From positions 1,498,788 through 1,549,620 of the forward strand of contig CP070785.1 of the NCBI GenBank assembly GCA_020346705.1: DNA of 50,833 nucleotides, in the 5' to 3' direction. The notes beneath the pieces were generated by a model. It did no database searches. It was not told the origin of the DNA and saw only the letters and a program-made list of their open reading frames with translations. The DNA is from Chloroflexota bacterium. Its GTDB lineage: Bacteria; Chloroflexota; Anaerolineae; Anaerolineales; UBA4823. Shown piece after piece: positions 33,922 to 47,827 of this stretch. How positions within the stretch are numbered: position 1 is the stretch's first letter; each line of letters starts with the position of its first letter. Position numbers and translations under genes: made by a program.

Positions 33922-34943
33922 TGCATAAGGTGGAAGAAGAAAAGCACGTATTAATTACCGGAGGAGCTGGATATCTGGGCTCGCTGGCTTGTAGCCACTT
34001 GCTGCAATTGGGGTATCGAGTGACTGTGGTAGACGACTTGCTCTATGGGGGTGAATCTCTACTGGCATATTTATCCCACCCTGAATTTAATTTTGTGAAG
34101 GCGAATGTTTGCGAAGCGCGTACAATCCGGTCCGCGATCGATCAATACTTGCCGGTACCGGTGGCAATTATGCATCTAGCAGGAATTGTTGGCTTCCCAG
34201 CCTGCCAAGCGGTCGGGAGACATGTTGCCTGGCAATACAATGTTGAAGCAGCGCAAAGGGCATTCGAACAGGCGGAGGAATTGGGTGTTGAGCGGTTTAT
34301 TTTCGCATCCACTTATAGCAATTACGGCACTTCAAGTCAGGATGACCTCGCAACAGAGGAATCTTCTGTCAATCCGCAATCTCTCTACGCAGAAACAATG
34401 GTCGCGGTAGAAAAATTTTTGCAGGCACAGGCTGGTTCAAATTGCGCACCATTGATATTTCGAATGGCTCACTTATACGGACTCTCGCCCAGACCCCGGT
34501 TTGATCTACTTGTAAACCAGTTCATCCTGGAAGCTTATACCCAACGTGATCTGCTGATATACCAACGGGGATACTCGAGGTCATTCATGCATGTGCGTGA
34601 TGCGGTGAGAGGCTTGATCCTCGGTCTGCAAAGTGAAATCGAAAATGTTCGGGGTCAGATTTACAACCTGGGTTCAGAAAATGGCAATCTGTCAAAAGAC
34701 AAGATCGTTGAGGTTATACTGAGACGATTACCAGAAACGACAGTACGTTACAAGGACTTGACATTTGGGGGAGATATGAGGGATTTCCATATTTCATACG
34801 AGAAAGTTCGAGATAAATTAGGTTTTGATACTCAATTCACGGTTGAAGATGGTGTGAGAGAAGTGCTAAATGCTTTGCGTTCTGGGTTAATTGATAATCC
34901 TAAAGACCAAAAGTACCGTAATGCGAAATTTATTGTGTCATGA
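33921..34943 (+). CDS. Extended SDR (NAD-dependent epimerase/dehydratase family) with a non-canonical YxxxM active-site motif
   Basis: It has ITGGAGYLGS, VVDDL and FIFASTYSNYG. The expected YxxxK reads YAETM (nt 34386-34400). Confidence 0.75.
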   Translation: MHKVEEEKHVLITGGAGYLGSLACSHLLQLGYRVTVVDDLLYGGESLLAYLSHPEFNFVKANVCEARTIRSAIDQYLPVPVAIMHLAGIVGFPACQAVGRHVAWQYNVEAAQRAFEQAEELGVERFIFASTYSNYGTSSQDDLATEESSVNPQSLYAETMVAVEKFLQAQAGSNCAPLIFRMAHLYGLSPRPRFDLLVNQFILEAYTQRDLLIYQRGYSRSFMHVRDAVRGLILGLQSEIENVRGQIYNLGSENGNLSKDKIVEVILRRLPETTVRYKDLTFGGDMRDFHISYEKVRDKLGFDTQFTVEDGVREVLNALRSGLIDNPKDQKYRNAKFIVS

Positions 34944-34949
34944 GAATAG

Positions 34950-35951
<1,002 letters not shown>

Positions 35952-36002: not shown

Positions 36003-36854
36003 ATGATTGAATCATCAGCCATCACGAAACAAGAAGAGGAAATAACCCTCATCAAACCTTCCAAGGGATGGGGTTCCCTTAATCTGCGCGAGCTTTGGAT
36101 TTATCGGGAGCTGGTTTATTTTCTCACCTGGCGAGATCTCAAGGTGCGCTATAAACAGACCGCCCTGGGCGCAGGATGGGCGATATTGCAGCCCGTGCTT
36201 TCAATGGTGGTGTTTTCAATATTCTTTGGGGGTCTTCTCAATGTCGATTCAGGAGATGTTCCTTACCCGATCTTTTCTTACGCAGCTATCTTGCCCTGGG
36301 GGGTATTTGCAAAAGCACTGAATGACACCGGGCGTTCTCTGGTCTCAAATCGGGCAATGCTGACGAAAATTTATTTCCCCCGGATGGTAATTCCTTTAGC
36401 ATCTGTTTTCTCAAGTCTGGCGGATTTTCTGATCGCTTTCGTGGTCATGCTGGGTTTGATGTATTACTACCAAATCGCACCAACTTCGAATATCTGGACA
36501 TTGCCTTTATTTTTACTCCTGGCTGTGATAACCGCTCTAGGGGTTGGCTTATGGCTCTCTGCCATGAATGTCCTCTATCGAGATATCGGCTATATGATCC
36601 CATATATCACCCAATTATGGTTTTATCTCACACCTATCGTCTATTCAGCCAGTGAGGTACCAGAAGAGTGGCAGTTCTTTTATGCCTTGAATCCGATGGT
36701 GGGTGTAGTGGAGGGTTTTCGCTGGGCATTATTAGGTACCGCAGATGCACCAAGCCCAATGATTGGAGTTTCAGCAGTTATCGCATTAATTGTATTTATT
36801 AGCGGGATGTTTTATTTTCGAAGGATGGAACGTACTTTTGCAGATATGGTTTGA
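36003..36854 (+). CDS. wzm: ABC-2 type polysaccharide export permease
   Basis: 283 aa with six TM segments. The N-terminal motif is RELVYFLTWRDLKVRYKQTALGAGWAILQP. Confidence 0.85.
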   Translation: MIESSAITKQEEEITLIKPSKGWGSLNLRELWIYRELVYFLTWRDLKVRYKQTALGAGWAILQPVLSMVVFSIFFGGLLNVDSGDVPYPIFSYAAILPWGVFAKALNDTGRSLVSNRAMLTKIYFPRMVIPLASVFSSLADFLIAFVVMLGLMYYYQIAPTSNIWTLPLFLLLAVITALGVGLWLSAMNVLYRDIGYMIPYITQLWFYLTPIVYSASEVPEEWQFFYALNPMVGVVEGFRWALLGTADAPSPMIGVSAVIALIVFISGMFYFRRMERTFADMV

Positions 36855-36916: not shown

Positions 36917-38185
36917 ATGGATGAAATTGCAATTCGGGTAGAAAATTTAAGTAAGCAGTACCGCATTGGATTAACGCCAATGCGGTACCGAACGCTACGA
37001 GAAACGATTTCTGAGTCGTTCACACGGAATGGGCGAGCGAGCAGGGCTGCAAGCAAAGAGGAAGAGGGGAAAATTTGGGCTTTGCGTGATATTTCTTTTG
37101 AAGTTCACAAAGGTCAGGTTCTGGGGATTATCGGGCGTAATGGCGCAGGAAAAAGCACTTTGCTCAAGATTTTATCCCGCATCACTGAACCAACTGAAGG
37201 TTATGCTGAAATAAGAGGCAGAGTAGGATCTTTACTTGAAGTTGGGACCGGATTTCACCCTGAATTATCCGGGCGAGAGAATATTTATCTCAATGGCGCC
37301 ATCCTTGGTATGAAGCGCGAGGAGATTGATCAAAAATTCGATGAGATCGTCGCCTTTTCAGAAGTAGAAAAATTCATCGATACTCCTGTAAAACGATTTT
37401 CCAGTGGCATGTACCTGCGATTGGCATTTGCGGTCGCAGCCCATTTAGAACCTCAAATTCTGGTTGTGGATGAAGTTCTCGCAGTAGGGGATGCTGAGTT
37501 TCAACGAAAATGCTTAGGAAAAATGAACGATGTGGCAAAAGAGGGACGAACCGTCCTTTTTGTCAGCCATAATATGTCCGCGATCCTGCGATTGACCGAC
37601 GAGACGATCCTTCTCGACGAGGGACGAATCGTCTTGCGTGCGCCGACGCCTCAAGCCGTGGATCACTATATGGCTTCTGGGTTTTCACAATCTGGAGAAC
37701 GCACCTGGTCTATTGATGAGATACCATCGGAATCAGCTCCATTTCGACCGATTGCATTACGAGTCAGCGACAATGACCAGCGCCGTTACGATCGGGTTCG
37801 CTCTACAAATCCGATAACAATTGAAGTGGAATACGCTATAGACGCGCCCATCAAGGGTTTGAGAGTCGGCGTGTACATGCAGACGACGCGTGGAGAATTT
37901 GTTTTTACCTCCTTTGATACTGACAACGCCCAGCAGTTCGAGAATTACAGCGTGCGACCAGAAGGACATTACATCAGCAGATGTACCTTACCTCCAGATT
38001 TCTTGAACGAAGGTCAATATGTGCTTGGAATCAATGCCAGCTCTTACCGGGTGAAACGATATTTTCAAGATGAAAATGCCCTCGCCTTCTCAGTGGATGG
38101 TGCTGGTGCTCCTGGGAAACAATGGCCGGAAAGAAGGCTTGGACCAGTGCGGCCTCGCCTGGAATGGGATATAGACGTAAGATGA
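36917..38185 (+). CDS. wzt: Polysaccharide ABC exporter ATP-binding protein with a C-terminal Wzt-type carbohydrate-binding domain
   Basis: It has Walker A GIIGRNGAGKSTLLK, signature FSSGMYLRLAFA and Walker B ILVVDEVL. A roughly 170-aa beta-rich C-terminal extension follows (residues about 255-422, nt 37679-38185). Confidence 0.9.
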   Translation: MDEIAIRVENLSKQYRIGLTPMRYRTLRETISESFTRNGRASRAASKEEEGKIWALRDISFEVHKGQVLGIIGRNGAGKSTLLKILSRITEPTEGYAEIRGRVGSLLEVGTGFHPELSGRENIYLNGAILGMKREEIDQKFDEIVAFSEVEKFIDTPVKRFSSGMYLRLAFAVAAHLEPQILVVDEVLAVGDAEFQRKCLGKMNDVAKEGRTVLFVSHNMSAILRLTDETILLDEGRIVLRAPTPQAVDHYMASGFSQSGERTWSIDEIPSESAPFRPIALRVSDNDQRRYDRVRSTNPITIEVEYAIDAPIKGLRVGVYMQTTRGEFVFTSFDTDNAQQFENYSVRPEGHYISRCTLPPDFLNEGQYVLGINASSYRVKRYFQDENALAFSVDGAGAPGKQWPERRLGPVRPRLEWDIDVR

Positions 38186-39777
38186 AATCAAAAGCAGCCG
38201 CTAAAAAAATTCTGGGTGAAGTGCCATTTTCTGCTGATATTTATTGGTTGATGCGGCAGTCAGAGGAACCCCCAACAAAGAATTATTATCTGAACAAGCT
38301 TGATAATGCGCTTCCAGGATGGGTCGATCAAGTGGCGAAATCCAGGGCTCAGATAAATGGTGAAGGTAAGAAAATTTTGATTTTCGCGGCGCTCCATTAT
38401 TGGATTTCTCATATTACCCTGGTTGGTGCTACCTTGTCCGGATTGGGTCACGAAGTTAATTTGATGTACCTGCCATACGCCCGGTGGGAAGAGCCCATCA
38501 ATCGCTTTGATCTGCGCCAGCAAAACTTATATACCAAAAGCGTTCTTCGCAAAGCTGACACAATCCTGAAACCGGTCTCATTATTGGATGTGAAAACATA
38601 CAACGATCAGCTACCTGATCAATTGATAGAGGTGGTTGAAAAAATCTCGCTGCGCGACACTCAATATACGGAACAGCTAGAAAAAGTTGACCAGGATAGT
38701 GCGCTCTATCGACTCAGGCTGGAACGTAATCAAGAAGCAGCCCAAAAAGCCCTCCATTGGATGCGGGAGAAAACACCTGAGGTGGTCGTGATCCCCAACG
38801 GAAGCATTCTCGAAATGGGAATCGTGTATGAAGTAGCGAAATATCTGGATCTGCCGAGGATAACTTATGAATTCGGTGAACAGCGCAACCGAATCTGGTT
38901 AGCCCTCGATAAAGAAGTTATGCGACAAGAAACGGACCATTTATGGGTTTCATTCAAGGATCGTTCAGTGCCCAGCGGAGAGATAGAGAAAGTTCGGGAT
39001 TTGTTCGATTCTCGACAAAAAGCTGATTTGTGGAAGAATTTTTCCAGGCAATGGCAAATTGCTCCCACTCAGGGTGGAAGTATGGTTCGTCAACAGCTTG
39101 GTTTGGATGAGCGACCTGTTGTAGTTCTTGCGGCGAATGTCATCGGAGACAGCCTCACTCTCGGTAGGGCATTGTTCAGCGGCAGCATGACTGAATGGCT
39201 TGAGCGGACGGTGAAATTCTTTGCAGAGAGATCAGATCTTCAGCTAGTTGTGCGCATTCATCCTGGTGAACGATACACGAAGGGACCTTCCGTTGCCGAC
39301 ACAGTAAATCACGCATTAAAATCTGTCCCTGAGAACATCCATTTGATCGCGGCTGACGACCAGACCAATACTTATGATCTGCTTGAAATTGCCGATATAG
39401 GATTGGTATACACAACTACAGTTGGTTTAGAAATGGCTATGAGTGGTGTGCCCGTTCTTGTGGTCGGTCAGACACATTACCGGGGGAAGGGATTTTCTTT
39501 TGATCCGAATTCGTGGGAAGAGTATTTCTCTTTATTGACTTCTTTTTCACAAGATCAAGAATCCTTTAAATTGACTTCAGACCAGGTAAAACTCGCCTGG
39601 CATTATGCTTATGTCTTTTTCTTTGAGTATCCGGCGCCATTTCCATGGCCAATGCCGAAATTCTGGAAGGAATTGGAAGAATGGCCTATTGAACGGGTAC
39701 TGTCCCCTGAGGGGATGGCTGAATATGGTGATACCTTCAGATACCTGGTTGGAGAACCACGCAGCTGGGCAAACTAA
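38182..39777 (+). CDS. GT-B-like glycosyltransferase resembling the capsule-synthesis (KpsC/KpsS, beta-Kdo transferase-type) family; carries an HP motif
   Basis: 531 aa from ATG 38182, whose ATGA overlaps the wzt stop. The C-terminal half reads VVVLAANVIGDS...LVVRIHPGE...LLEIADIGLVYTTTVGLEMAMSGVPVLVVG. HP is at nt 39259-39264. The family assignment is from memory. Confidence 0.45.
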   Translation: MKSKAAAKKILGEVPFSADIYWLMRQSEEPPTKNYYLNKLDNALPGWVDQVAKSRAQINGEGKKILIFAALHYWISHITLVGATLSGLGHEVNLMYLPYARWEEPINRFDLRQQNLYTKSVLRKADTILKPVSLLDVKTYNDQLPDQLIEVVEKISLRDTQYTEQLEKVDQDSALYRLRLERNQEAAQKALHWMREKTPEVVVIPNGSILEMGIVYEVAKYLDLPRITYEFGEQRNRIWLALDKEVMRQETDHLWVSFKDRSVPSGEIEKVRDLFDSRQKADLWKNFSRQWQIAPTQGGSMVRQQLGLDERPVVVLAANVIGDSLTLGRALFSGSMTEWLERTVKFFAERSDLQLVVRIHPGERYTKGPSVADTVNHALKSVPENIHLIAADDQTNTYDLLEIADIGLVYTTTVGLEMAMSGVPVLVVGQTHYRGKGFSFDPNSWEEYFSLLTSFSQDQESFKLTSDQVKLAWHYAYVFFFEYPAPFPWPMPKFWKELEEWPIERVLSPEGMAEYGDTFRYLVGEPRSWAN

Positions 39778-39859: not shown

Positions 39860-40885
39860 ATGAACCAGAAAGATAAGCTTCGCGATCATCCCATCTTTAT
39901 TTGTGGTCACCCTAAATCAGGAACTACATTACTGGTTTCTCTATTGGATTCTCACCCACAATTGATCGTTTACCCGAATGAGACCTTCTTCTTTCGGGGA
40001 TTTGTTCCAGAGATGAGAAAACGCGATCTAGATGAAAAAATCTCGCTGGCTCAACGGTATCTCCTTCATTTTTTTGAACGGGGATTAATCGATCCAGATA
40101 ATCAAGATGCTGAGGAGCAATCACAGAACCAGTTTTTCATGGATTATGCCCAGACATGTCAAGAAATGATCCATGAAGTTGACAAGAATGGCATACGACA
40201 TGATGGCGATTTGCTCAGTGCGGCGATTGTTGCTTACGGACGGGTGTATGGAAGGATATCCGCGGACACGGAATACTGGATCGAGAAAACACCGTATAAC
40301 GAGCATTTTGCTGAGCTGATTTTCTCCTGGTGGCCGGATGCGCGCTGCATCCATATTGTGCGTGACCCGCGAGATAATTACCTGACATACCAACGAAAAC
40401 ATCAAGGGTTGTCAGCGGAAGATTTTTCTATTGGTTGGAATTCAAGTTTACAGACCGGATACCAAAATGAGAAGCAATTCGGCAAGGATCACTACCTGCT
40501 TTTGAGGTACGAGGATTTGACGATTGAGCCTGAAAAAACATTGCAGGAACTGATCGGCTTCCTCGAAATTGTTGATGATGAAGTCTTACGCATCCCAACA
40601 AGTGATGGAATTCCCTGGGAAGGAAATTCTCAGTTCGGTGATAAGTTTCAAGGTATCAGCAGCAAACCCGTTGGCCGCTGGAAACAGGAACTTGATGATC
40701 GCAATGTAAATATTATCGAATCGATTTGTGCGGATAATATGCGCAAGGAAAATTATGAGGTTGAAAATAAATCTAGGTTGAATTCGATATACCTCCTTTG
40801 GAGCTGGAGGCTCAAACAGATACCCGCTTTACGAGGTGATATCTCTAGAATGATGAAACAAAGATTCGGAATGCTGCCGCACTAA
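39860..40885 (+). CDS. PAPS-dependent sulfotransferase family protein
   Basis: It has the 5'-phosphosulfate-binding loop ICGHPKSGTTLL (nt 39911-39928) and the 3'-phosphate-binding motif IHIVRDPRDNYLT. Confidence 0.85.
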   Translation: MNQKDKLRDHPIFICGHPKSGTTLLVSLLDSHPQLIVYPNETFFFRGFVPEMRKRDLDEKISLAQRYLLHFFERGLIDPDNQDAEEQSQNQFFMDYAQTCQEMIHEVDKNGIRHDGDLLSAAIVAYGRVYGRISADTEYWIEKTPYNEHFAELIFSWWPDARCIHIVRDPRDNYLTYQRKHQGLSAEDFSIGWNSSLQTGYQNEKQFGKDHYLLLRYEDLTIEPEKTLQELIGFLEIVDDEVLRIPTSDGIPWEGNSQFGDKFQGISSKPVGRWKQELDDRNVNIIESICADNMRKENYEVENKSRLNSIYLLWSWRLKQIPALRGDISRMMKQRFGMLPH

Positions 40886-40983
40886 ATACGTCCAATGGGA
40901 CAGATACAGCGTTGAATAGATTATGGAAAGATCCTCAATTTATATAGATTTCCACAAGCTGTTTTCGAGGATCAGAAATTGAG

Positions 40984-41826
40984 ATGAAAAACAAGAAATC
41001 GGTTGGTTATCTAAAGAGACGGAGCACCTTATGGGCCTCGAGGCAGTATCGTAAATTGACTGCCCATGACCGGGTGCTTCCCAGTTTTATTATTATCGGC
41101 GTCCAAAAAGGTGGAACCTCGTCTTTATTCAATTATTTGTTGCAACACCCGAACATCCTTCCTGGATACAAGAAGGAGGTTAAATTCTTCGATGGAAATT
41201 ATCATAAGGGTCTTGACTGGTATCGTTACAACTTCCCTTTAAAGACTCAGATGAGTGATTCGATGGCTCGGACGGGTGAAGCAAGCCCGAGTTATGTCTT
41301 CCACCCGCTTGTACCCGAGAGGATTAAGGAAGCACTGCCAAATATTAAGCTGGTCTTGCTGCTTCGAAATCCTGTTTCCAGAGCCTATTCCCACTACCAG
41401 GGAAACTTGAGGAAAGGACAGGAGGAACTCACTTTTGAAGAGGCCATCGAACGAGAGGAAAGCAGACTACATGGAGAGAGAGAGGCAATTATTGCTGATC
41501 AACACTATCCAATGTACAGGTACCTGGTATATTCATATCTTTCTAGAGGTGTGTATATCGACCAAATCAAGAATTGGTTGAAATCCTTTCCTCGCGAGCA
41601 AATTCTTATTCAAAAGAGCGAGGATTTATTCAGCAACCCACAAAATGTATATTCACGCGTATTGGATCACTTAGGACTTCCAGATTTCCAGCTTGAAAAT
41701 TTCAAGATTATCAATTTGGGTCGGTATGAGGAAATGGATTCAAGAACTGAGAACAAGTTGAAGGAATATTTCACTTCATATAACTACGAGTTATATGAAT
41801 TTCTAGGAACGAATTTTGGATGGTAG
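40984..41826 (+). CDS. PAPS-dependent sulfotransferase (Sulfotransfer_1-like, carbohydrate sulfotransferase-type)
   Basis: It has the 5'-PSB loop IIIGVQKGGTSSL (nt 41104-41121) and the 3'-PB motif VLLLRNPVSRAYSHY. Confidence 0.85.
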   Translation: MKNKKSVGYLKRRSTLWASRQYRKLTAHDRVLPSFIIIGVQKGGTSSLFNYLLQHPNILPGYKKEVKFFDGNYHKGLDWYRYNFPLKTQMSDSMARTGEASPSYVFHPLVPERIKEALPNIKLVLLLRNPVSRAYSHYQGNLRKGQEELTFEEAIEREESRLHGEREAIIADQHYPMYRYLVYSYLSRGVYIDQIKNWLKSFPREQILIQKSEDLFSNPQNVYSRVLDHLGLPDFQLENFKIINLGRYEEMDSRTENKLKEYFTSYNYELYEFLGTNFGW

Positions 41827-41832
41827 GTTGTA

Positions 41833-42747
41833 TTGATTTTGATGAATCATAGTAATTCGATTATGAAAAACAGCTCTGAGCTGAAAATTAAACAAGACGT
41901 ACGCAAGTTCTATGACGACATTGGTTGGAAGGAAATTGGTGACGGTGTTTATCAAAATGCGCGCTATGAAGATTTGCGTCCCGTCTCTTGGGAATATATT
42001 CATAATTGTCACTTGCGAGTTTGCAGACATTTGAATCAAGAAGGTCGATATTTTCTTGATGCTGGCTCAGGTCCCATCCAATATCCCGAGTATCTAGAAT
42101 ATTCGCAAGGCTACCAGGCAAGAGTATGTGCAGACATTTCAATCGTTGCCCTTGCGGAAGCGCGACAACGGATAGGAGATCGAAGTTCTGGCGGCAACGG
42201 TCTTTTCGTTGTAGCAGATATCGCCAACCTGCCTTTTCGGAGAGATGCGTTTGACGGGGTTGTCTCGTTGCACACCATCCATCATCTACCTATTGAAGAA
42301 CACAAACAGGCTTATCAAGAGGTGTACCGGGTACTGGCGCCGTCGAAATCAGCAGTGGTTGTCAATGGCTGGCAAGATTCTTCATTAATGCGTTTTTTCG
42401 TCCTACCAATTAAATGGAAGAATCGCGCCAGGAAATGGATCAGGAGAAGCGTTAATAATTTTCGTCGTGGACGATCTAACACTTCTAATGGGAGCCGAAA
42501 ACAGAAAGGCAAAGGAACATTTGTTAGCAAACATGATGTTGAGTGGCTCAAAAGGGAAGTTGGATCTCTGATGAATCTTGAAATTCTCGTCTGGAGAAGC
42601 GTGAGTGTTCGTTTTCTACGAGGATATATCTTTCCCGACCTGGGCGGTAAGTGGCTGCTCCGCAAATTGTATGGTTTGGAGGAACGCTTCCCGCATTTTT
42701 TTGGTGAACACGGACAGTACCCATTGATCGTGATTAAGAAGGATTAA
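41833..42747 (+). CDS. Class I SAM-dependent methyltransferase with a Lys/Arg-rich insertion
   Basis: It has motif I FLDAGSGP and the downstream segments VVADIANLPF and VSLHTIHHL. A basic insert KWKNRARKWIRRSVNNFRRGRSNTSNGSRKQKGKG lies at nt 42412-42516. Confidence 0.7.
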   Translation: MILMNHSNSIMKNSSELKIKQDVRKFYDDIGWKEIGDGVYQNARYEDLRPVSWEYIHNCHLRVCRHLNQEGRYFLDAGSGPIQYPEYLEYSQGYQARVCADISIVALAEARQRIGDRSSGGNGLFVVADIANLPFRRDAFDGVVSLHTIHHLPIEEHKQAYQEVYRVLAPSKSAVVVNGWQDSSLMRFFVLPIKWKNRARKWIRRSVNNFRRGRSNTSNGSRKQKGKGTFVSKHDVEWLKREVGSLMNLEILVWRSVSVRFLRGYIFPDLGGKWLLRKLYGLEERFPHFFGEHGQYPLIVIKKD

Positions 42748-42752: not shown

Positions 42753-43778
42753 GTGGATATGAATTCTGGTATGGATTGGAAAAATCAAGTCGTGCTCGTG
42801 ACCGGTGGAACGGGTTCCTTCGGAAAAAAATTCATCGAGGCAATGTTAAAGGATTATCACCCTCAAAAGATAATTGTCTTCAGCCGCGATGAATTGAAAC
42901 AGCACGAGATGAGAATCAGCGGATTTGACCACGTGGATCTGCGCTATTTCATCGGTGATGTTCGCGATTTGAACAGGTTGCGCAGGGCGATGCAGGGTGT
43001 TGATATTGTCGTTCATACCGCGGCATTAAAACAGGTGCCGGCCTGCGAATACAATCCTATGGAAGCGATCAAGACCAATGTGTTAGGGAGCAGCAACGTC
43101 ATTGAGGCTGCATTGGATACAGGTGTGAAGAAAGTAATGGCGCTGAGTACCGATAAAGCAGTCAACCCGATCAACCTGTATGGCGCCACGAAGCTGGCGG
43201 CAGAAAAGCTTTTCGTGCAAAGCAATGCTTATGCTGGTGGAACCGCAACTCGATACAGCAGTGTTCGCTATGGAAATGTAGTCGGTAGTCGGGGAAGCGT
43301 CATACCTGTATTCCTGAAGCAAAAGAACAAAGATAAACTCACAATTACTGATGAGCGGATGACCCGCTTCTGGATCACTTTGGAAGAAGGGATAAGATTT
43401 GTGATCCGCTGCATTGAACAAATGCAAGGCGGTGAGGTGTTCGTACCAAAAATCCCCAGCATGAAGGTGGTTGATGTCGCCAGGGTGATTGCGCCTGATG
43501 CAGAATTGAAATCGATCGGCATCAGGCCTGGAGAAAAGCTGCATGAAGTGTTGATCCACGAGGATGAAGCGAGGCTGACGCTCGAATTGGAGGATATGTT
43601 CGTTGTCCAGCCTTCTGAAGCCCTGTGGTTTGGACACGAATGGCAAGAAATAGGGAAAACTCTCCCAGATGGATATCGATATGCCAGTGATAATAATACC
43701 GATTGGCTAACGATCGAACAACTTCGGGATATTGTTTCCACGGTTGAAGCTGAACAAGATCTAAGTTCTGGCTTTTAA
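42753..43778 (+). CDS. UDP-N-acetylglucosamine 4,6-dehydratase, PseB/FlaA1/CapD-like
   Basis: It has VLVTGGTGSFGKKFIE, HTAALKQVP, STDKAVNPINLYGATKLAAEKLF and RYGNVVGSRGSV. The start could be GTG 42753 or ATG 42759. Confidence 0.85.
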   Translation: MDMNSGMDWKNQVVLVTGGTGSFGKKFIEAMLKDYHPQKIIVFSRDELKQHEMRISGFDHVDLRYFIGDVRDLNRLRRAMQGVDIVVHTAALKQVPACEYNPMEAIKTNVLGSSNVIEAALDTGVKKVMALSTDKAVNPINLYGATKLAAEKLFVQSNAYAGGTATRYSSVRYGNVVGSRGSVIPVFLKQKNKDKLTITDERMTRFWITLEEGIRFVIRCIEQMQGGEVFVPKIPSMKVVDVARVIAPDAELKSIGIRPGEKLHEVLIHEDEARLTLELEDMFVVQPSEALWFGHEWQEIGKTLPDGYRYASDNNTDWLTIEQLRDIVSTVEAEQDLSSGF

Positions 43779-43861: not shown

Positions 43862-44776
43862 ATGCGGATACTGGTTACCGGAGCCAGCGGCCTGCTTGGT
43901 CTTAACACGGCTCTTGAAGCCAGCCAGCAGCACGAGGTTTTCGGTAGTGTAAACAAGAATGTAATTCAGTCAAAAACTTTCACCGTAATTCAGTCAGATT
44001 TGACAGAGCCCGGTGCTCTGGAAAAGCTGATCGATGAGAGCAAACCTGACTGGGTGATAAACTGTGCTGCGCTAGCAAACCTCGATGCCTGTGAGGCCAA
44101 TCCGGCTCTGGCTGAAAAATTGAATAGCGAATTACCTGGAAAACTGGCAAATTATGTCGCCAAGGGCGGAGCGCGCCTGGTGCATCTCTCGACCGATGCT
44201 GTTTTTGATGGCGAGCGTGGAAATTACACCGAGGAGGATAAACCAAATCCGCTCAGCCTATATGCCAGGACAAAGCTGAGCGGAGAACAGGTAGTATTGG
44301 CTTCCAATCCGGAGGCGATAGTTGCCCGGGTCAACTTATTTGGATGGAGTTTGAGTGGGAAGAGAAGCCTGGCAGAGTGGTTCGTGAACAATCTATCCGC
44401 TGGTAACAAGATCATGGGCTTCACGGACGTTTATTTCTGTCCATTACTCGTCAACCACCTGGCCACTTTATTATTGAGGATGCTGGAGCTTGAATTGCAT
44501 GGGCTTTATCACGTTGTCTCAAGCGAATGCGCAAACAAGTTCGATTTCGGTGTGAGGCTGGCAAGGTTATTCGGTTTTGATGAATCTTTGATCGAGCCAG
44601 CTTCGGTATCTGAGTCTGGTTTGAGTGCAGCCAGATCACCGATGCTGACTTTGAAAGCTGACAAGCTTATTCGAGAGTTGGGAGAACCAACTCCCGGGTT
44701 AACAGAAGGGCTGGCAGGTTTTTACTCGCAATATCGTGATGGGTATCCAGAATTCATACAGGGGATGAAAGTCTGA
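43862..44776 (+). CDS. SDR, dTDP-4-dehydrorhamnose reductase (RmlD)-like sugar-nucleotide 4-reductase
   Basis: It has RILVTGASGLLG, INCAAL and HLSTDAVFDG followed by YARTKLSGE. At 304 aa it is RmlD-sized. Confidence 0.7.
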   Translation: MRILVTGASGLLGLNTALEASQQHEVFGSVNKNVIQSKTFTVIQSDLTEPGALEKLIDESKPDWVINCAALANLDACEANPALAEKLNSELPGKLANYVAKGGARLVHLSTDAVFDGERGNYTEEDKPNPLSLYARTKLSGEQVVLASNPEAIVARVNLFGWSLSGKRSLAEWFVNNLSAGNKIMGFTDVYFCPLLVNHLATLLLRMLELELHGLYHVVSSECANKFDFGVRLARLFGFDESLIEPASVSESGLSAARSPMLTLKADKLIRELGEPTPGLTEGLAGFYSQYRDGYPEFIQGMKV

Positions 44777-44798
44777 TTTGAGAGATCAGGAGGCGGTT

Positions 44799-45866
44799 AT
44801 GGAAATTAAGATTGGCTCCAACGTAATCGGTGAAAACCACCCGACATATTTCATTGCAGACATCTCCGCCAATCATGATGGTGATCTGGAACGAGCCAAA
44901 TTATTGATCCGGTTAGCAGCTGAATCAGGCGCCGATGCAGCGAAATTTCAAAATTTCCGGGCTCCTGAGATCGTCTCCGATTTCGGTTTTCGCTCAATGC
45001 AGGATCAAGTTTCACACCAGGCGACCTGGATGAAAAGTGTCTTCGAGGTATACCAGGATGCTTCAATCCCCTTTGAATGGACACCCATTCTCAAAGAGGA
45101 ATGTGACCAGGCAGGAATAGATTATTTCTCATCGCCTTATGATTTTGAAGCAATTGATATGCTTGACCAATATGTGCCGGCTTACAAAATCGGATCGGGT
45201 GAAATTACCTGGTTGGAAGCATTAGAACGGATGGCGAATTTGGGGAAGCCGGTGATCCTGGCAACTGGCGCTTCGGACATCGGGGATGTTCAGAGGGCTG
45301 TACATACAATTTTGAGAATCAATCCCCAGCTGGTACTGATGCAGTGCAATACGAACTACACAGCCAGCGATGAAAACTTCGATCATATACATTTGCGAGT
45401 CTTAGAGACCTTCCGGGTGATGTTTCCAGATGTAATCCTTGGATTATCGGACCATACATTTGGGCCAACAACTGTGTTAGGCGCAGTCGCACTCGGGGCG
45501 CGAGTGATTGAAAAACATTTTACAGATGATAACGACCGGGTTGGACCCGATCATCCCTTCTCCATGACCCCAACAACCTGGCGAGACATGGTTGACCGGA
45601 CGCGAGAAATGGAACGCGCGCTGGGTTCGGCTGATAAGCGGGTTGGGGAGAATGAACAAGAAACGGTCGTCATTCAACGCCGCTGCTTGCGAGCAGCCAG
45701 GGATATCGCCAAAGGTGAGATTCTTTCAAGGAAGATGATCGCCGTGCTCCGACCGGCGACAAAGGGGGCTATCTACCCTTATGAGATCAGCCAGGTAATT
45801 GGTGCGAAGGCGATCACGGATATCACTGCCGGGCAAGAGCTGCGCTGGACGGATTTAGGCGAATAA
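44799..45866 (+). CDS. NeuB-family nonulosonic acid synthase (PseI-like) with a C-terminal SAF domain
   Basis: It has YFIADISANHDGDLERAKLLI and KIGSGEITWLEALE. The C-terminal SAF-like region reads RRCLRAARDIAKGEIL...ITAGQELRWTDL. AGGAGG lies 5 nt upstream of ATG 44799. Confidence 0.85.
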   Translation: MEIKIGSNVIGENHPTYFIADISANHDGDLERAKLLIRLAAESGADAAKFQNFRAPEIVSDFGFRSMQDQVSHQATWMKSVFEVYQDASIPFEWTPILKEECDQAGIDYFSSPYDFEAIDMLDQYVPAYKIGSGEITWLEALERMANLGKPVILATGASDIGDVQRAVHTILRINPQLVLMQCNTNYTASDENFDHIHLRVLETFRVMFPDVILGLSDHTFGPTTVLGAVALGARVIEKHFTDDNDRVGPDHPFSMTPTTWRDMVDRTREMERALGSADKRVGENEQETVVIQRRCLRAARDIAKGEILSRKMIAVLRPATKGAIYPYEISQVIGAKAITDITAGQELRWTDLGE

Positions 45867-45884: not shown

Positions 45885-46982
45885 TTGACCCGCCTAATTT
45901 ACTTCTCGAGGGATTATACAAACCACGATCTTCGTTTTCTTTCAGCCCTAGCCAGTACAGATTACGAAGTTTACTATCTCAGATTGGAGCGGAGACGCGA
46001 ACAACTCGAAGATCGACCTCTACCAGTTGCAGTTCGCCAGATCAAATGGGCGGGGGGAAAACAGACGGTCAATTTTTTTGATGGGCCAAATCTGTTGCTC
46101 GATCTTCGCCGGGTTATCAAGGAAGTAAAACCTGACCTGATCCACGCAGGACCGATTCAGAGGAGTGCCTTCTTGGTCGCATTGTCAGGCTTTAAACCGT
46201 TGATCAGCGCTTCCTGGGGATATGATCTATTGCATGATGCTGATCGAAATTTGTTTTGGCGTGATGCAACCAGATATACCTTACAGCGAAGCGCGATCTT
46301 GATTGGTGATTGCGACACAGTTCGAAATAAAGCGATCGAATTTGGGATGCCTGACAATAAAATTGTCACTTTTCCTTGGGGTATCGAACTAGATTCGTTT
46401 ATCCCGGGTGGTTTCCCATTTCAAGGGAGTGATCAATATACTCTGTTATCGACCCGAAACTGGGAACCAATTTACGGTGTGGAAATCCTGGCGAAGGCAT
46501 TTGTCAAATCTGCCCAGAAGAATGATGAATTGAGATTGATCATGCTAGGCAATGGCTCCTTAGCCAACCAACTGCGACAAACCTTCACCAGGGGAGGAGT
46601 CATGGATCGGGTGATCTTCCCTGGACAGGTAACCCACACAGATTTGCCGAAATATTTCCAGATGGCAGATATATATGTGAGCGCCTCGCGGACTGATGGG
46701 AGTTCAATTTCCCTGATTGAAGCATTTGCGAGCGGTAGGCCAGCAATTGTCTCTGATATTCCCGGAAACAGGGAGTGGGTTGAACCAGGAGTTAATGGCT
46801 GGTGGTTCATAGATGGCGACGAGGATGACCTTGCTGAGGCAATCTTGTCTGCTGCAGACCAGCGCCAGAATTTTCCGGAGATGGGCCGTGCAGCCCGTCA
46901 AACCGCAGAAGAGAGAGCGGACTGGGGGAAGAATTTCTCCAAACTCCTGGCGGCCTATGAGGTGGCATTAGAACACGCATAA
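45885..46982 (+). CDS. Glycosyltransferase, GT4 family (GT-B)
   Basis: It reads GNGSL...FPGQV...DIYVSASRTDGSSISLIEAFASGRPAIVSDIPGNREWVEPGVNGW, which is an E-x7-E context. It has a TTG start. Confidence 0.8.
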   Translation: MTRLIYFSRDYTNHDLRFLSALASTDYEVYYLRLERRREQLEDRPLPVAVRQIKWAGGKQTVNFFDGPNLLLDLRRVIKEVKPDLIHAGPIQRSAFLVALSGFKPLISASWGYDLLHDADRNLFWRDATRYTLQRSAILIGDCDTVRNKAIEFGMPDNKIVTFPWGIELDSFIPGGFPFQGSDQYTLLSTRNWEPIYGVEILAKAFVKSAQKNDELRLIMLGNGSLANQLRQTFTRGGVMDRVIFPGQVTHTDLPKYFQMADIYVSASRTDGSSISLIEAFASGRPAIVSDIPGNREWVEPGVNGWWFIDGDEDDLAEAILSAADQRQNFPEMGRAARQTAEERADWGKNFSKLLAAYEVALEHA

Positions 46983-47827
46983 TGGAAAACCACCAACTAA
47001 AATCAAACAAAGTTGTTGCCCTGGTTCAGGCCAGGATGAGCGCTTCTCGACTGCCCGGGAAGGTGTTATTGGACATCGGGAGAAAACCGATGCTGGCGCG
47101 GGTCGTAGATCGTTCCCGCCGATCTGATTTTGTCGATCAGGTGGTCGTTGCAACAAGCCAGGAAGAAGCTGATGACCCGATAGAGACGTATTGTGATCAG
47201 CAGGGATATGATTGTTACCGAGGCAGTTTACACGATGTTTTGGACCGTTATTATCAAGCTGCAAAATTCCATTCAGCAGGAGTCGTGGTTCGCATCACTG
47301 CGGATTGTCCGATCATCGATCCGCTGGTTATTGATCAAACTTTGGACGCATTCTTTGGAAGCGGACCTCATTTGATTACAGAACGAGTTTCTGCCCCAGA
47401 ACGCGTGACACCTATACCTGATCCTGCCTGGGACTTTGCAGCCAACCGGCTGCCTCCCCCCTGGAAGCGCACATTTCCGATCGGTCTTGATACAGAGGTT
47501 TGTACATTCGCTGTACTAGAGACTGCCTGGCAAGAAGCGGACAAACCTCACCAGCGAGAGCACGTGATGCCTTTTCTATATGAAAATGATCAACGATATC
47601 GAATTTTATTGGTCAATCATGAGCCTGACCTGGGAAGTTTGCGCTGGACAGTTGATACACCCGAAGATTTGGAACTGCTCAGGGAGATCTACAGCCGCTT
47701 TGGGGGCCGGGATGATTTCTCCTGGCTGGAAGTGCTTGAATTATTTGAGCGAGAACCCGAGCTGGCGGAGATCAATGCTGAAGTTCTTCACAAGCATTAT
47801 CAGGATGTGGAGAAGATTGACGAGTAG
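46982..47827 (+). CDS. Cytidylyltransferase family protein (CTP_transf_3; SpsF/PseF/NeuA-like CMP-sugar synthetase)
   Basis: The N-terminal pattern is VVALVQARMSASRLPGKVLLDIGRKPMLARVVDR, and the family pattern ATS...DD is present. Its start overlaps the preceding stop (TAATG). Confidence 0.7.
   Translation: MENHQLKSNKVVALVQARMSASRLPGKVLLDIGRKPMLARVVDRSRRSDFVDQVVVATSQEEADDPIETYCDQQGYDCYRGSLHDVLDRYYQAAKFHSAGVVVRITADCPIIDPLVIDQTLDAFFGSGPHLITERVSAPERVTPIPDPAWDFAANRLPPPWKRTFPIGLDTEVCTFAVLETAWQEADKPHQREHVMPFLYENDQRYRILLVNHEPDLGSLRWTVDTPEDLELLREIYSRFGGRDDFSWLEVLELFEREPELAEINAEVLHKHYQDVEKIDE

What the first reader, a model, noticed from the sequence alone, without database searches (positions are those of the whole stretch)
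39860..41826. Two adjacent PAPS-type sulfotransferases inside an ABC-exported glycan cluster: predicted sulfated polysaccharide
Both ORFs carry the two diagnostic PAPS-binding elements.
- ORF 39860: PKSGTT (5'-phosphosulfate loop, nt 39911-39928) and RDPRD.
- ORF 40984: QKGGTSS (nt 41104-41121) and LLLRNPVSRAYSHY. This second pattern resembles eukaryotic heparan-sulfate-type carbohydrate sulfotransferases.

They differ in length (341 and 280 aa) and differ outside the PAPS-binding motifs, so two distinct sulfation positions or acceptors are implied.

Bacterial glycan sulfation is rare and known mainly from rhizobial Nod factors and LPS, mycobacterial sulfolipids and some cyanobacterial EPS. 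I do not know of a described sulfated, ABC-exported, ulosonic-acid-containing polymer in a Chloroflexota-like organism.

Sulfate could also serve as the chain-terminating signal for the Wzt CBM.
Basis: partly seen in the sequence, partly recalled or inferred. Interest (0 to 1): 0.7.

Follow-up and report, generated by a model that had tools for sequence, protein, structure and literature searches.

The report
Sulfotransferase pair in Anaerolineales glycan locus
Two intact sulfate-adding enzymes lie in the middle of a cell-surface sugar-polymer gene cluster that is conserved across the Anaerolineales (Chloroflexota), and related genomes carry the sulfate-donor synthase in the same cluster, so these common sediment and sludge bacteria probably make a sulfated, sialic-acid-like surface polymer that nobody has described chemically.

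Summary
ORF 39860-40885 (ST1, 341 aa) and ORF 40984-41826 (ST2, 280 aa) are intact PAPS-type sulfotransferases.

- **ST1** matches Pfam Sulfotransfer_3 (2e-32). Its predicted fold is closest to tyrosylprotein sulfotransferases.
- **ST2** matches Sulfotransfer_1 (2e-20). It aligns to human heparan-sulfate 3-O-sulfotransferase 3A at E 4e-29.
- Both keep the PAPS-binding loops and the catalytic Glu, and neither has a membrane segment.

They sit in a one-strand cluster: wzm, wzt (with carbohydrate-binding module), a KpsC-like GT-B transferase, ST1, ST2, a methyltransferase, PseB, a reductase, NeuB, GT4 and a cytidylyltransferase.

The locus is conserved in at least 80 Anaerolineales species.
- ST1 is its core sulfotransferase. 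In 43 of 80 genome loci a fused ATP-sulfurylase/APS-kinase (PAPS synthase) lies 0.8-6 kb downstream on the same strand.
- ST2 is a lineage-specific extra.
- The window stops inside a GT2 gene. Collinear relatives (64-89% identical proteins) continue with a third sulfotransferase and the PAPS synthase.

A sulfated, ABC-exported, nonulosonic-acid glycan is therefore well supported genomically, though not chemically. Comparable sulfated ABC-exported capsules are already described in Vibrio and Cobetia, so this is a new variant of a known kind. Sulfate as the export signal remains speculative, and ST2 is an unlikely source of it.

The parts
39860..40885 (+). ST1: cytoplasmic PAPS-type sulfotransferase, Sulfotransfer_3 / TPST-like fold. 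It is the core sulfotransferase of the Anaerolineales locus. Key residues: PSB loop P18-T23 (nt 39911-39928), Glu41 (nt 39980-39982), Lys143 (nt 40286-40288), R168-D172 (nt 40361-40375).
   Evidence: Pfam 2.1e-32. PDB sequence hits to TPST1/2 at 1.7e-9. AF2 model pLDDT 84. Foldseek gives TPST at E 3e-10 to 1e-9 and TM 0.5-0.63, then the Ols/CurM sulfotransferases. 2896 homologues. Invariant residues in A1. No TM segment.
40984..41826 (+). ST2: cytoplasmic PAPS-type sulfotransferase, Sulfotransfer_1, heparan-sulfate 3-OST/NDST-like. It is a lineage-specific accessory. Key residues: PSB loop Q41-S47 (nt 41104-41124), Glu65 in KEVKFFD (nt 41176-41178), 3'-PB segment L125-Y138 (nt 41356-41397).
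   Evidence: Pfam 1.8e-20. PDB 1t8t at 4e-29, NDST1 at 3e-22, bacterial 3rnl at 2e-23. Invariants in A3. 2039 homologues in many phyla. Present in only 2 of 80 genome loci, plus L001-L005, L088 and presumably L089, which starts downstream of it. No TM segment.
36003..36854 (+). Wzm, ABC-2 permease of the glycan exporter
   Evidence: Pfam ABC2_membrane 7e-20. Several TM-like segments, about six by Kyte-Doolittle scan, some overlapping.
36917..38185 (+). Wzt, the ATPase with a C-terminal carbohydrate-binding module (about residues 266-422)
   Evidence: Pfam ABC_tran plus Wzt_C at 1.6e-8. Aquifex aeolicus Wzt 8dku at 1e-66, aligned over residues 51-371. CBM identity to relatives is 58-63%.
38182..39777 (+). 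X531: GT-B glycosyltransferase of an unannotated family, KpsC/WbbB-like, probably a CMP-(non)ulosonic acid transferase. The real start is probably ATG 38182, overlapping the wzt stop by 4 nt. The mechanical ORF starts at 38122.
   Evidence: Weak Pfam Capsule_synth hit, 1.8e-4. NCBIfam BFO_1060 GT at 3.7e-6. AF2 pLDDT 86. Foldseek best TM to KpsC 6mgd/6mgb (0.55-0.56) and WbbB (0.42). Gene callers give 531 aa. 3950 homologues.
41833..42747 (+). SAM-dependent methyltransferase, a third modifying enzyme. It starts 7 nt after the ST2 stop codon (6-nt gap).
   Evidence: Pfam Methyltransf_11 at 1.8e-15. Conserved next to X531 or ST1 in 27 of 80 loci.
42753..43778 (+). PseB, UDP-GlcNAc 4,6-dehydratase (inverting)
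   Evidence: NCBIfam TIGR03589 equivalog, 495.8 bits against a cut-off of 407.75.
43862..44776 (+). RmlD-like 4-reductase
   Evidence: Pfam RmlD_sub_bind 1.4e-55. Below the NCBIfam rmlD cut-off.
44778..45866 (+). NeuB/PseI-family nonulosonic acid synthase
   Evidence: Pfam NeuB 7.8e-71 plus SAF. Below both the NeuB and PseI equivalog cut-offs.
45885..46982 (+). GT4 glycosyltransferase, conserved between NeuB and the cytidylyltransferase
   Evidence: synteny.
46982..47827 (+). CMP-(non)ulosonic acid synthetase
   Evidence: Pfam CTP_transf_3 7.7e-30. KdsB-like, below cut-off.
47922..48818 (+). U298, a conserved protein of unknown function that always lies beside the cytidylyltransferase
   Evidence: No Pfam, NCBIfam or PDB match. 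Present in 49 of 80 loci.
48851..49738 (+). Second SAM methyltransferase (Methyltransf_23)
50610..50833 (+). N-terminus of a GT2 glycosyltransferase, cut by the window end. In collinear relatives the cluster runs on to a second GT2, a 477-aa unknown protein, a third sulfotransferase, an oxidoreductase and the PAPS synthase.
   Evidence: tblastn 78% identity to the first 74 residues of the L089 GT2. L089 annotation.
32280..35951 (+). GDP-mannose 4,6-dehydratase, a MarR-type regulator and two SDR epimerase/reductases (6-deoxyhexose supply) directly upstream of wzm
   Evidence: Pfam. Syntenic in relatives.

Best explanation
ST1 and ST2 are two active, soluble, cytoplasmic PAPS-dependent O-sulfotransferases. 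They decorate a lipid-linked glycan while it is built on the inner face of the membrane. The Wzm-Wzt ABC transporter then exports that glycan.

The glycan contains a pseudaminic-acid-like nonulosonic acid. This sugar is made by PseB, a reductase, NeuB and a cytidylyltransferase, and is probably transferred by the KpsC-like GT-B protein X531. The glycan probably also contains GDP-mannose-derived 6-deoxyhexose.

- ST1 is the ancestral, core sulfotransferase of a locus conserved across Anaerolineales. It is genetically coupled to a dedicated fused ATP-sulfurylase/APS-kinase.
- ST2 is a later, lineage-specific addition of heparan-sulfate-3-OST type that adds sulfate at a second position or residue.
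- A neighbouring methyltransferase adds a third modification.

Shown: enzyme family, intact catalytic and PAPS-binding residues, lack of membrane segments, cluster membership, conservation, and PAPS-synthase linkage in relatives.
Inferred: that the acceptor is the cluster's glycan, that sulfation precedes export, that it is O- rather than N-sulfation, and that this genome carries the PAPS synthase just beyond the window end.
For: Family and fold:
- Pfam and PDB sequence hits.
- ST1 model and Foldseek.

Active-site residues:
- ST2 K42 aligns with the GVKKGGT loop of 3-OST-3A. E65 and D70 in KEVKFFD align with EPHFFD. R128 and S136 lie in the 3'-PB segment.
- ST1 K19, E41, K143 and R168 align with the PRSGTT, GEETR and NKDPF segments of TPST1 and are invariant in 30 homologues, except K19, which is Arg in four of them.
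- Neither protein has a TM or signal segment. PAPS is cytosolic (established knowledge).

Operon-like setting:
- All genes from 32280 to the window end lie on one strand. No intergenic terminator-like site was found in the scanned stretch 35900-43000.

Synteny:
- The order wzm-wzt-X531-ST1-ST2-(MT)-PseB-RmlD-NeuB-GT4-CMPt is kept down to about 50% identity.
- Of 50 genome loci with at least 15 kb held, 45 carry markers of this locus beside the ST1 orthologue and 35 carry the PAPS synthase. The PAPS synthase is always on the same strand, 0.8-6.2 kb downstream (Pfam confirmation).
- Window-clade relative L089 has the same gene order as the window from the methyltransferase to U237. After U237 it adds GT2, GT2, a 477-aa unknown protein, a Sulfotransfer_3 protein, an oxidoreductase and a PUA_2+ATP-sulfurylase+APS_kinase protein. 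Its near-identical partner L088 shows the same order from ST1 onward.
- The window ends inside the first of those GT2 genes.

Literature:
- PAPS genes together with sulfotransferases inside a polysaccharide cluster are regarded as the hallmark of sulfated polysaccharide synthesis (PMC11641403; PMC11766843).
Against: - There is no chemical evidence for any sulfated glycan in any Anaerolineales.
- No PAPS gene lies in the 50.8 kb window, and the rest of this genome could not be read.
- ST1's nearest solved structures are protein-tyrosine sulfotransferases and 'activating' PKS sulfotransferases, not carbohydrate sulfotransferases.
- ST2 lacks the residue aligned with Lys215 of 3-OST-3 (Ala100), so acceptor binding differs from any characterised relative.
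- Some divergent ST1 homologues sit with only a PAPS synthase and a GH2 mannosidase, without the nonulosonic-acid genes.
- Some distant ST2 homologues have no glycan context.
Confidence: 0.65

Rival explanations
1. Sulfate is part of the non-reducing-end cap. X531 adds a terminal nonulosonic acid. ST1, possibly together with the methyltransferase, modifies that residue. The Wzt carbohydrate-binding module recognises the sulfated cap, so sulfation ends chain growth and licenses export. This would parallel methyl, methyl-phosphate and Kdo caps in E. coli and Klebsiella O antigens.
For: - Wzt carries a CBM. CBM-bearing Wzt proteins export only terminated chains (PMC11231755).
- X531, ST1, ST2 and MT directly follow wzt, the usual place for terminator genes.
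- X531 is structurally closest to the Kdo transferases KpsC and WbbB, and WbbB's Kdo transferase is a known terminator.
- The CBM is unusually conserved (58-63%) across Anaerolineales that all share X531, the NulO genes and ST1.
Against: - No sulfate cap is known among the described terminators listed, and the literature search found none.
- No coiled-coil 'ruler' protein was recognised, although this was not tested formally.
- CBM identity is the same with or without ST2 (63% in L005 against 58% in L010/L011) and with or without MT. So ST2, and probably MT, are not the determinants.
- In most relatives ST1 lies about 10 kb from wzt, beside a second NulO module and the PAPS synthase.
- Two or three sulfotransferases suggest sulfation of repeat units.
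Confidence: 0.18
2. ST1 is a bacterial tyrosylprotein sulfotransferase of the RaxST/TPST type. It sulfates a protein or peptide, for example an S-layer or secreted protein, rather than the glycan. Only ST2 acts on sugar.
For: - TPST1/2 are the best sequence and structure matches.
- The TPST catalytic constellation is conserved.
- One database entry names a homologue 'Protein-tyrosine sulfotransferase 1' (P0072).
Against: - The identity is only 17-20% and TM only 0.5-0.63.
- PF13469 also holds the carbohydrate sulfotransferase NodH (PMC11625862).
- ST1 is embedded in glycan loci in 45 of 50 well-covered genome loci.
- No candidate peptide substrate gene is conserved next to it.
- The P0072 name is an automatic annotation.
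Confidence: 0.07
3. The sulfotransferases act before polymerisation, on a nucleotide sugar, the free nonulosonic acid or a lipid or small molecule. Sulfate might then serve as a transient leaving group, as in the CurM/Ols 'activating' sulfotransferases, so the final polymer would carry little or no sulfate.
For: - The CurM and Ols sulfotransferase domains are ST1's next-best structural neighbours.
- In relatives the ST1/ST3/PAPS-synthase block is interleaved with a GFO/IDH/MocA oxidoreductase and an SDR.
- The NulO pathway is non-canonical, with no aminotransferase or acetyltransferase.
Against: - No thioesterase or decarboxylase-type partner is present.
- A dedicated PAPS synthase and two or three different sulfotransferases fit stoichiometric decoration better.
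- ST2's relatives are polymer-modifying enzymes.
Confidence: 0.08

Closest known systems
Sulfated capsular polysaccharide clusters of marine Gammaproteobacteria (Vibrio sp. KMM 8419, PMC11641403; Cobetia marina KMM 1449, PMC11766843)
   Same: These are polysaccharide gene clusters that combine sugar-nucleotide synthesis, glycosyltransferases, an ABC exporter, one or more PAPS-type sulfotransferases and in-cluster PAPS synthesis genes. Cobetia polymers are reported to contain Kdo, an ulosonic acid, and sulfates. The sulfotransferase specificities are likewise unassigned.
   Different: - Those clusters use KpsMT-type capsule exporters of diderm bacteria with KpsC/S lipid priming and cysDN/cysC genes.
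- Here the exporter is an O-antigen-type Wzm/Wzt with a carbohydrate-binding module.
- The acid sugar is a nine-carbon Pse-like nonulosonic acid.
- The PAPS synthase (in relatives) is a single Sat-CysC fusion.
- The host is a Chloroflexota lineage, a phylum reported to lack the LPS-biosynthesis and BAM pathways (PMC13319060).
- The locus is conserved across an order rather than being strain-specific.
Animal heparan sulfate 3-O-sulfotransferases and the NDST N-sulfotransferase domain (PDB 1t8t, 1zrh, 1nst)
   Same: ST2 aligns over about 200 residues at E 4e-29 to 3e-22. It keeps the PSB Lys, the Glu and Asp of the EPHFFD segment and the 3'-PB Arg and Ser. The same sulfuryl-transfer chemistry is expected.
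   Different: - ST2 has no membrane anchor or lumenal localisation.
- His is replaced by Lys67 in this protein.
- The residue aligned with Lys215 of 3-OST-3 is Ala.
- The window has no heparosan or HS synthase.
The acceptor is therefore not heparan sulfate.
Tyrosylprotein sulfotransferases TPST1/2 and other PF13469 enzymes (NodH, CurM/Ols sulfotransferase domains)
   Same: ST1 shares the fold (Foldseek E about 1e-9), the PSB loop, the Glu about 22 residues after it, the EK/NK motif and the RDxR 3'-PB motif.
   Different: - Sequence identity is only 17-20%.
- ST1 is cytoplasmic.
- It is always found in a glycan or PAPS-synthase context.
- It has a family-specific C-terminal region (GNSxF..GIS.KP.GRWK plus an amphipathic tail).
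ABC-transporter-dependent O-antigen and S-layer glycan assembly with terminal capping and a Wzt CBM (E. coli O9a WbdD; Klebsiella O12 WbbB and O4 GT137; PMC11231755, PMC9445017)
   Same: Wzm and Wzt with a C-terminal CBM. Modifying enzymes and an ulosonic-acid-type GT-B transferase are encoded immediately after wzt. A methyltransferase is present.
   Different: Known caps are methyl, methyl-phosphate, and beta- or alpha-Kdo. No sulfate cap and no nonulosonic-acid cap has been described. No coiled-coil terminator was recognised here.
Synechan (xss) sulfated exopolysaccharide system of Synechocystis (PMC8205485)
   Same: It is a bacterial polysaccharide cluster with its own sulfotransferases.
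   Different: From my own knowledge, not checked here: it uses a Wzx/Wzy-type pathway, has no nonulosonic acid and no Wzt CBM.

Membership tests
PAPS-dependent sulfotransferase superfamily (PF00685 / PF13469) | 5'-phosphosulfate-binding (PSB) loop, P-K/R-x-G-T-T/S | tested here: met
   ST1 has GHPKSGTT at residues 16-23. ST2 has GVQKGGTSS at residues 39-47. G, G and T are invariant in A1 and A3.
PAPS-dependent sulfotransferase superfamily (PF00685 / PF13469) | 3'-phosphate-binding motif (Arg ... Ser/Asp segment) | tested here: met
   ST2 R128 and S136 are invariant and align with RDPVTRAISDY of 3-OST-3A. ST1 R168, P170 and D172 are invariant and align with VRDGR of TPST1.
PAPS-dependent sulfotransferase superfamily (PF00685 / PF13469) | Catalytic base shortly after the PSB loop | tested here: met
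   ST2 E65 aligns with the Glu of EPHFFD. ST1 E41 aligns with GEETR of TPST1. Both are invariant. Their identification as catalytic bases rests on my recollection of the 3-OST and TPST2 literature.
PAPS-dependent sulfotransferase superfamily (PF00685 / PF13469) | Sulfotransferase alpha/beta fold | tested here: met
   ST1: AF2 pLDDT 84 and 49 PDB sulfotransferase matches at E <= 1e-3. ST2: direct sequence homology to solved structures; it was not modelled.
PAPS-dependent sulfotransferase superfamily (PF00685 / PF13469) | Use of PAPS as donor, with a PAPS supply in the organism | tested here: inconclusive
   No cysC, sat or cysD lies in the window. A PAPS synthase lies beside ST1 orthologues in 43 of 80 genome loci and in the collinear relative L089.
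Heparan sulfate 3-OST / NDST family (functional membership) | Sequence similarity across the sulfotransferase domain | tested here: met
   4e-29 to 3-OST-3A and 3e-22 to the NDST1 NST domain.
Heparan sulfate 3-OST / NDST family (functional membership) | HS-binding residues (for example Lys215 of 3-OST-3; His of EPHFFD) | tested here: not met
   The aligned positions are Ala100 and Lys67 in ST2. Residue roles are from memory of the literature.
Heparan sulfate 3-OST / NDST family (functional membership) | Heparosan/HS backbone as acceptor; Golgi type II membrane topology | tested here: not met
   No heparosan-synthase-type GT was seen among the ORFs of at least 150 aa in the window that were scanned with Pfam. 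ST2 has no TM segment.
Tyrosylprotein sulfotransferase (TPST/RaxST) | TPST-like fold and catalytic residues | tested here: met
Tyrosylprotein sulfotransferase (TPST/RaxST) | Protein or peptide tyrosine as acceptor | not testable with these tools
   The context argues against it: glycan-locus markers lie beside ST1 in 45 of 50 well-covered loci.
ABC-transporter-dependent glycan assembly with capped chains (Wzm/Wzt-CBM) | Wzm permease plus Wzt ATPase | tested here: met
ABC-transporter-dependent glycan assembly with capped chains (Wzm/Wzt-CBM) | C-terminal carbohydrate-binding module on Wzt | tested here: met
   Wzt_C at 1.6e-8 over residues 281-394. The alignment to A. aeolicus Wzt runs to residue 371.
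ABC-transporter-dependent glycan assembly with capped chains (Wzm/Wzt-CBM) | Dedicated terminator enzyme with a coiled-coil ruler, and a defined terminal residue | tested here: inconclusive
   The candidates X531, ST1 and MT follow wzt. No coiled-coil was evident in the X531 or ST1 models, and no coiled-coil predictor was run. The cap chemistry cannot be tested.
Sulfated-polysaccharide biosynthetic cluster (hallmark of PMC11641403) | Sulfotransferase genes and PAPS-synthesis genes within one polysaccharide cluster | tested here: inconclusive
   The sulfotransferases meet the criterion in the window. The PAPS genes meet it only in relatives: L089, L056 and 43 of 80 loci. The window ends before the expected position.
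Pseudaminic acid pathway (PseB-C-H-G-I-F) | Full enzyme set | tested here: not met
   The PseB equivalog passes its cut-off. The NeuB/PseI-like and cytidylyltransferase proteins fall below their cut-offs. No PseC aminotransferase, PseH acetyltransferase or PseG was found, and an RmlD-like reductase is present instead.

The most novel reading that the evidence does not exclude
Anaerolineales build a conserved envelope polymer whose chains are finished with a sulfated (and possibly methylated) Pse-like nonulosonic acid. That sulfated cap would be the ligand of the conserved Wzt carbohydrate-binding module. This would be the first sulfate-dependent chain-termination and export checkpoint, and the first sulfated bacterial nonulosonic acid.
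Probability: 0.15. Interest if true: 0.75.

Novelty: new variant of a known kind. Interest (0 to 1): 0.5.

Why it matters
Anaerolineales are among the most abundant filamentous bacteria in anoxic sediments, digesters and granular sludge, yet nothing is known about their surface glycans.

Chemical surveys find both nonulosonic acids and sulfated glycoconjugates in anaerobic and aerobic granular sludge EPS. The same studies could not find the responsible sulfotransferases by BLAST (PMC10483923). This locus is conserved in at least 80 species and combines NulO synthesis, two or three sulfotransferases and a dedicated PAPS synthase. It gives concrete candidate genes and makes the question testable.

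It also supplies bacterial, soluble, heparan-sulfate-type and TPST-type sulfotransferases. Such enzymes are of interest for enzymatic sulfation of polysaccharides. It offers, too, a possible new kind of terminal signal for Wzt-type exporters.

Tried and rejected
1. **Retrieving the window's own contig or genome to look for cysC, sat and cysQ.** The exact-sequence look-ups of U237 and ST1 are not on record. A 50-mer from the end of L001 gave no hit in metagenome contigs. I solved this indirectly through a protein scan with the downstream methyltransferase.
2. **GC or GC3 deviation as a sign of recent transfer.** ST1, ST2 and MT have slightly lower GC (0.42-0.44 against 0.46), but GC3 is ordinary, so this was not pursued.
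3. **Promoter and terminator scan of 35900-43000.** Promoter-like hits were at the random expectation. Terminator-like hits were about twice the shuffle mean, but none lies between genes.
4. **Assigning U298, U237 and the L056 207-aa ORF.** There were no significant Pfam matches for any of them, and no NCBIfam or PDB match for U298.
5. **Profile search of X531 against PDB sequences.** It gave only a marginal KpsC hit (E 0.38). The fold search was needed.
6. **Contexts of distant ST2 homologues.** One is fused in an operon with a 1043-aa multi-GT protein. One has no glycan context. This says little about the acceptor.
7. **My first guess that ST2 Glu99 (GEASP) is the catalytic base.** I rejected it. 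The alignment places the 3-OST EPHFFD Glu at ST2 Glu65, and Glu99-Ala100 aligns with Glu214-Lys215.
8. **ST2 as an N-sulfotransferase.** I considered this, but nothing in the cluster would produce a free amino sugar, so I left it as unlikely.

Full report
**1. Observation**

The two ORFs are real. ST1 is 39860-40885 (341 aa) and ST2 is 40984-41826 (280 aa), both on the + strand and 98 nt apart.

- Pfam: ST1 is Sulfotransfer_3 (2.1e-32) and Sulfotransfer_1 (8e-13). ST2 is Sulfotransfer_1 (1.8e-20) and Sulfotransfer_3 (3.5e-12).
- The quoted motifs are at the stated places. QKGGTSS actually ends at nt 41124, not 41121.
- The two proteins share only the region around the PAPS loops (BLASTP E 0.002).
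- Neither has a hydrophobic segment, so both are soluble cytoplasmic proteins.

**2. What each enzyme is**

ST2:
- It aligns to human heparan sulfate 3-O-sulfotransferase 3A at 4e-29, to the other 3-OSTs and the NDST1 N-sulfotransferase domain at 1e-21 to 1e-24, and to an uncharacterised Alicyclobacillus sulfotransferase (3rnl) at 2e-23.
- K42 falls in the GVKKGGT loop. E65 and D70 of KEVKFFD fall on E and D of EPHFFD. R128 and S136 fall in the 3'-phosphate segment. All are invariant in 23 homologues except K42, which is Arg in a few.
- The spacing matches the residue numbers I remember for 3-OST-3 (E184, H186, D189, K215). That is recollection, not a tool result.
- The positions aligned with His186 and Lys215 are Lys67 and Ala100. 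The chemistry is therefore conserved but the acceptor site is not that of an HS enzyme.

ST1:
- It hits TPST1/2 (1.7e-9) and more weakly the Ols/CurM sulfotransferase domains.
- An AlphaFold model (pLDDT 84) finds TPSTs first (E 3e-10 to 1e-9, TM 0.5-0.63). Next come the Ols/CurM, Stf9, 3rnl and 3-OST structures.
- K19, E41, K143 and R168 align with PRSGTT, GEETR, NKDPF and VRDGR of TPST1. E41, K143 and R168 are invariant in 30 homologues, and position 19 is Lys or Arg.
- NCBIfam has no model for either protein beyond a P-loop-only NoeE hit for ST1.

**3. Surroundings in the window**

From 25576 to the window end every gene is on the + strand:
- UDP-sugar dehydrogenase, an epimerase, a Wzx-like flippase, GT4 and a GT-C (PMT_2-like) protein;
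- GDP-mannose 4,6-dehydratase, a MarR-type regulator and two SDR epimerase/reductases;
- Wzm, then Wzt with a Wzt_C module (best PDB match Aquifex aeolicus Wzt, 1e-66);
- X531, ST1, ST2 and a methyltransferase;
- PseB (equivalog, 496 bits against a cut-off of 408), an RmlD-like reductase, a NeuB/PseI-family synthase, GT4 and a cytidylyltransferase;
- an unknown 298-aa protein, a second methyltransferase, a lipoprotein-like ORF and the first 74 codons of a GT2.

X531:
- It is 531 aa if started at ATG 38182, as gene callers do in relatives.
- It belongs to a large unannotated family of 3950 homologues.
- Its model (pLDDT 86) is a GT-B fold. The best TM-scores are to the beta-Kdo transferases KpsC (0.55-0.56) and WbbB (0.42).
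- It has weak Capsule_synth and BFO_1060-GT profile hits.
- I read it as the CMP-nonulosonic-acid transferase.

No terminator-like site separates the genes from wzm to the start of PseB, the stretch that was scanned (35900-43000).

**4. Relatives**

- The window's exact proteins are not in the public collection.
- A JGI contig 97% identical in protein sequence is fully collinear (L001).
- A scan of GTDB species representatives with the ST1 alignment returned 80 loci. Nearly all are Anaerolineales or Chloroflexota MAGs from sediments, springs, caves, digesters and soils, and the best identity is 82%. The source is therefore an uncultured Anaerolineales species.
- tblastn of all window cluster proteins against these loci shows one conserved locus: MarR, epimerase, Wzm, Wzt, X531, (MT), PseB, RmlD-like, NeuB, GT4, cytidylyltransferase, U298.
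- The ST1 orthologue is either directly after X531 (window clade, at least 49% identity) or 1-4 kb after U298 (38-48% identity).
- ST2 occurs only in the window's near relatives (L001-L005, L008, L009, L088; at least 55% identity). That is 2 of the 80 species loci.
- Most other loci carry a different second sulfotransferase, here called ST3 (Sulfotransfer_3, 279-372 aa, 24% identical to ST1). It is present in 45 of 80 loci.

**5. PAPS supply**

- Pfam shows it to be a PUA_2 + ATP-sulfurylase + APS_kinase fusion.
- Counts: it is present in 43 of 80 loci, and in 35 of the 50 loci with at least 15 kb held. It is always on the ST1 strand, 0.8-6.2 kb downstream of the ST1 start.
- The five well-covered loci that lack the nonulosonic-acid genes still pair the ST1 homologue with PAPS genes. 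In L053 and L063 the order is GH2 mannosidase, ST1-like, PAPS synthase. In L031, cysC and cysD hits lie directly upstream on the opposite strand.
- The window has no such gene, but it is truncated. Metagenome contigs L088 and L089 are window-clade relatives. Identities are ST1 77% and ST2 75% (L088), and MT 75%, PseB 89% and U237 84% (both), in the same order as the window.
- After U237, L089 continues with GT2, GT2, a 477-aa ORF, ST3, a GFO/IDH/MocA oxidoreductase, the PAPS synthase (L089 14961-16757) and an SDR. L088 ends at ST3.
- The window's last 224 nt encode the start of that first GT2 (78% identity).
- I therefore infer that this organism's cluster holds three sulfotransferases and a PAPS synthase, with the last two genes about 3.5 and 6 kb beyond the window.

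**6. Mechanism**

The best-supported model is cytoplasmic O-sulfation of the growing or finished lipid-linked glycan by ST1 (core) and ST2 (accessory), followed by Wzm/Wzt export.
- Shown: enzyme families, intact active sites, soluble proteins, operon-like placement, order-wide synteny, and tight ST1 / PAPS-synthase linkage.
- Inferred: the acceptor, the timing, O- rather than N-sulfation, and the presence of the PAPS synthase in this genome.

- Wzt does carry a CBM, and genes for modifying enzymes follow wzt as terminator genes do elsewhere (PMC11231755).
- Known caps are methyl, methyl-phosphate and Kdo.
- The CBM is 58-63% identical across relatives whether or not ST2 or MT is present. ST2 is therefore an unlikely determinant. 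Only the shared components (X531, the NulO, ST1) could define a common cap.
- I give this sub-hypothesis about 0.15-0.2.

Other rivals are less likely given the context:
- ST1 as a protein-tyrosine sulfotransferase;
- action on precursors;
- sulfate as a transient leaving group.

**7. Comparison with what is known**

- Sulfated, ABC-exported capsules with in-cluster PAPS genes and unassigned sulfotransferases are described for Vibrio sp. KMM 8419 (PMC11641403) and Cobetia marina (PMC11766843). Cobetia polymers are reported to contain both Kdo and sulfates.
- Synechan is a Wzx/Wzy-type example (PMC8205485, listed; the pathway type is from my own knowledge).
- What differs here: a Chloroflexota host; an O-antigen-type Wzm/Wzt-CBM exporter; a non-canonical Pse-like nonulosonic acid; two or three sulfotransferases from two Pfam families; a fused Sat-CysC; and conservation across an order.
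- The held literature has no report of sulfotransferases or sulfated glycans made by Anaerolineae or Chloroflexota. It has none of bacterial clusters that join Pse/Leg-type sugars with sulfotransferases.
- Granular-sludge EPS does contain both NulOs and sulfated glycoconjugates whose sulfotransferases could not be found by BLAST (PMC10483923). This locus is a plausible source.

**8. Verdict**

- Novelty: a new variant of a known kind.
- Interest is moderate (0.5). The enzymes are ordinary family members. The conserved, PAPS-synthase-linked, NulO-associated locus in a major uncultured lineage is a useful and testable prediction.

Noticed in passing
window 42753-47827: The nonulosonic-acid pathway is non-canonical. 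A bona fide PseB equivalog is followed by an RmlD-like 4-reductase, a NeuB/PseI-like synthase (below both equivalog cut-offs), a GT4 protein and a KdsB-like cytidylyltransferase. There is no PseC aminotransferase, PseH acetyltransferase or PseG. This suggests a Pse-like 9-deoxy sugar with a hydroxyl instead of the 7-acylamino group, and that free OH could be a sulfation or methylation site.
   Followed up: partly
window 38182-39777 (X531): This is a very large (3950 hits), well conserved and entirely unannotated protein family. It has a GT-B fold closest to the KpsC/WbbB Kdo transferases. It always lies directly after wzt in Anaerolineales loci. The mechanical ORF start (38122) overlaps wzt by 64 nt, and the likely start is 38182.
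   Followed up: partly
L056 15844-20242, and the same block in about 30 other loci: Many relatives carry a second nonulosonic-acid module after the PAPS synthase. It has a second cytidylyltransferase, a NeuB paralogue (about 32% identity) fused to an AP_endonuc_2/xylose-isomerase-like TIM barrel (638 aa), and a second Capsule_synth-type GT (560 aa, 22-26% identical to X531). It is not present in the window.
   Followed up: partly
window 47922-48818 (U298): This conserved 298-aa protein has no Pfam, NCBIfam or PDB match. It is found beside the cytidylyltransferase in 49 of 80 loci. It is a candidate for a missing step, for example a nucleotide-sugar hydrolase or another transferase.
   Followed up: partly
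L053 7486-12831; L063 7455-12872: In more divergent Anaerolineales loci the ST1 homologue forms a compact trio: GH2 beta-mannosidase-like protein, sulfotransferase, PAPS synthase. The nonulosonic-acid genes are absent. In L053 the GH2 gene is split into two ORFs.
   Followed up: partly
window 27992-32206: A Wzx-like flippase (Polysacc_synt), a GT4 and a roughly 10-TM GT-C protein (weak PMT_2 hit) lie upstream on the same strand as the Wzm/Wzt system. Two export or attachment routes may therefore operate, for example extracytoplasmic glycosylation or ligation of the polymer to a protein or the wall.
   Followed up: no
window 9775-10881 (- strand): An ORF with a bacterial archaeo-eukaryotic release factor domain (baeRF_family10, 1.7e-34) lies among housekeeping genes.
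   Followed up: no
window 40886-40983: The 98-nt ST1-ST2 spacer contains an inverted repeat (GATCCTC ... GAGGATC) just upstream of the ST2 start. The terminator scan did not call it, and its function is unknown.
   Followed up: no
L087 4873-8819: A distant ST2 homologue (52% identity), on a contig that also encodes a Por_Secre_tail protein (which suggests Bacteroidota), overlaps the stop of a 1043-aa multi-domain GT2+GT4 protein. That is the kind of polymerase typical of ABC-dependent glycan synthesis.
   Followed up: no
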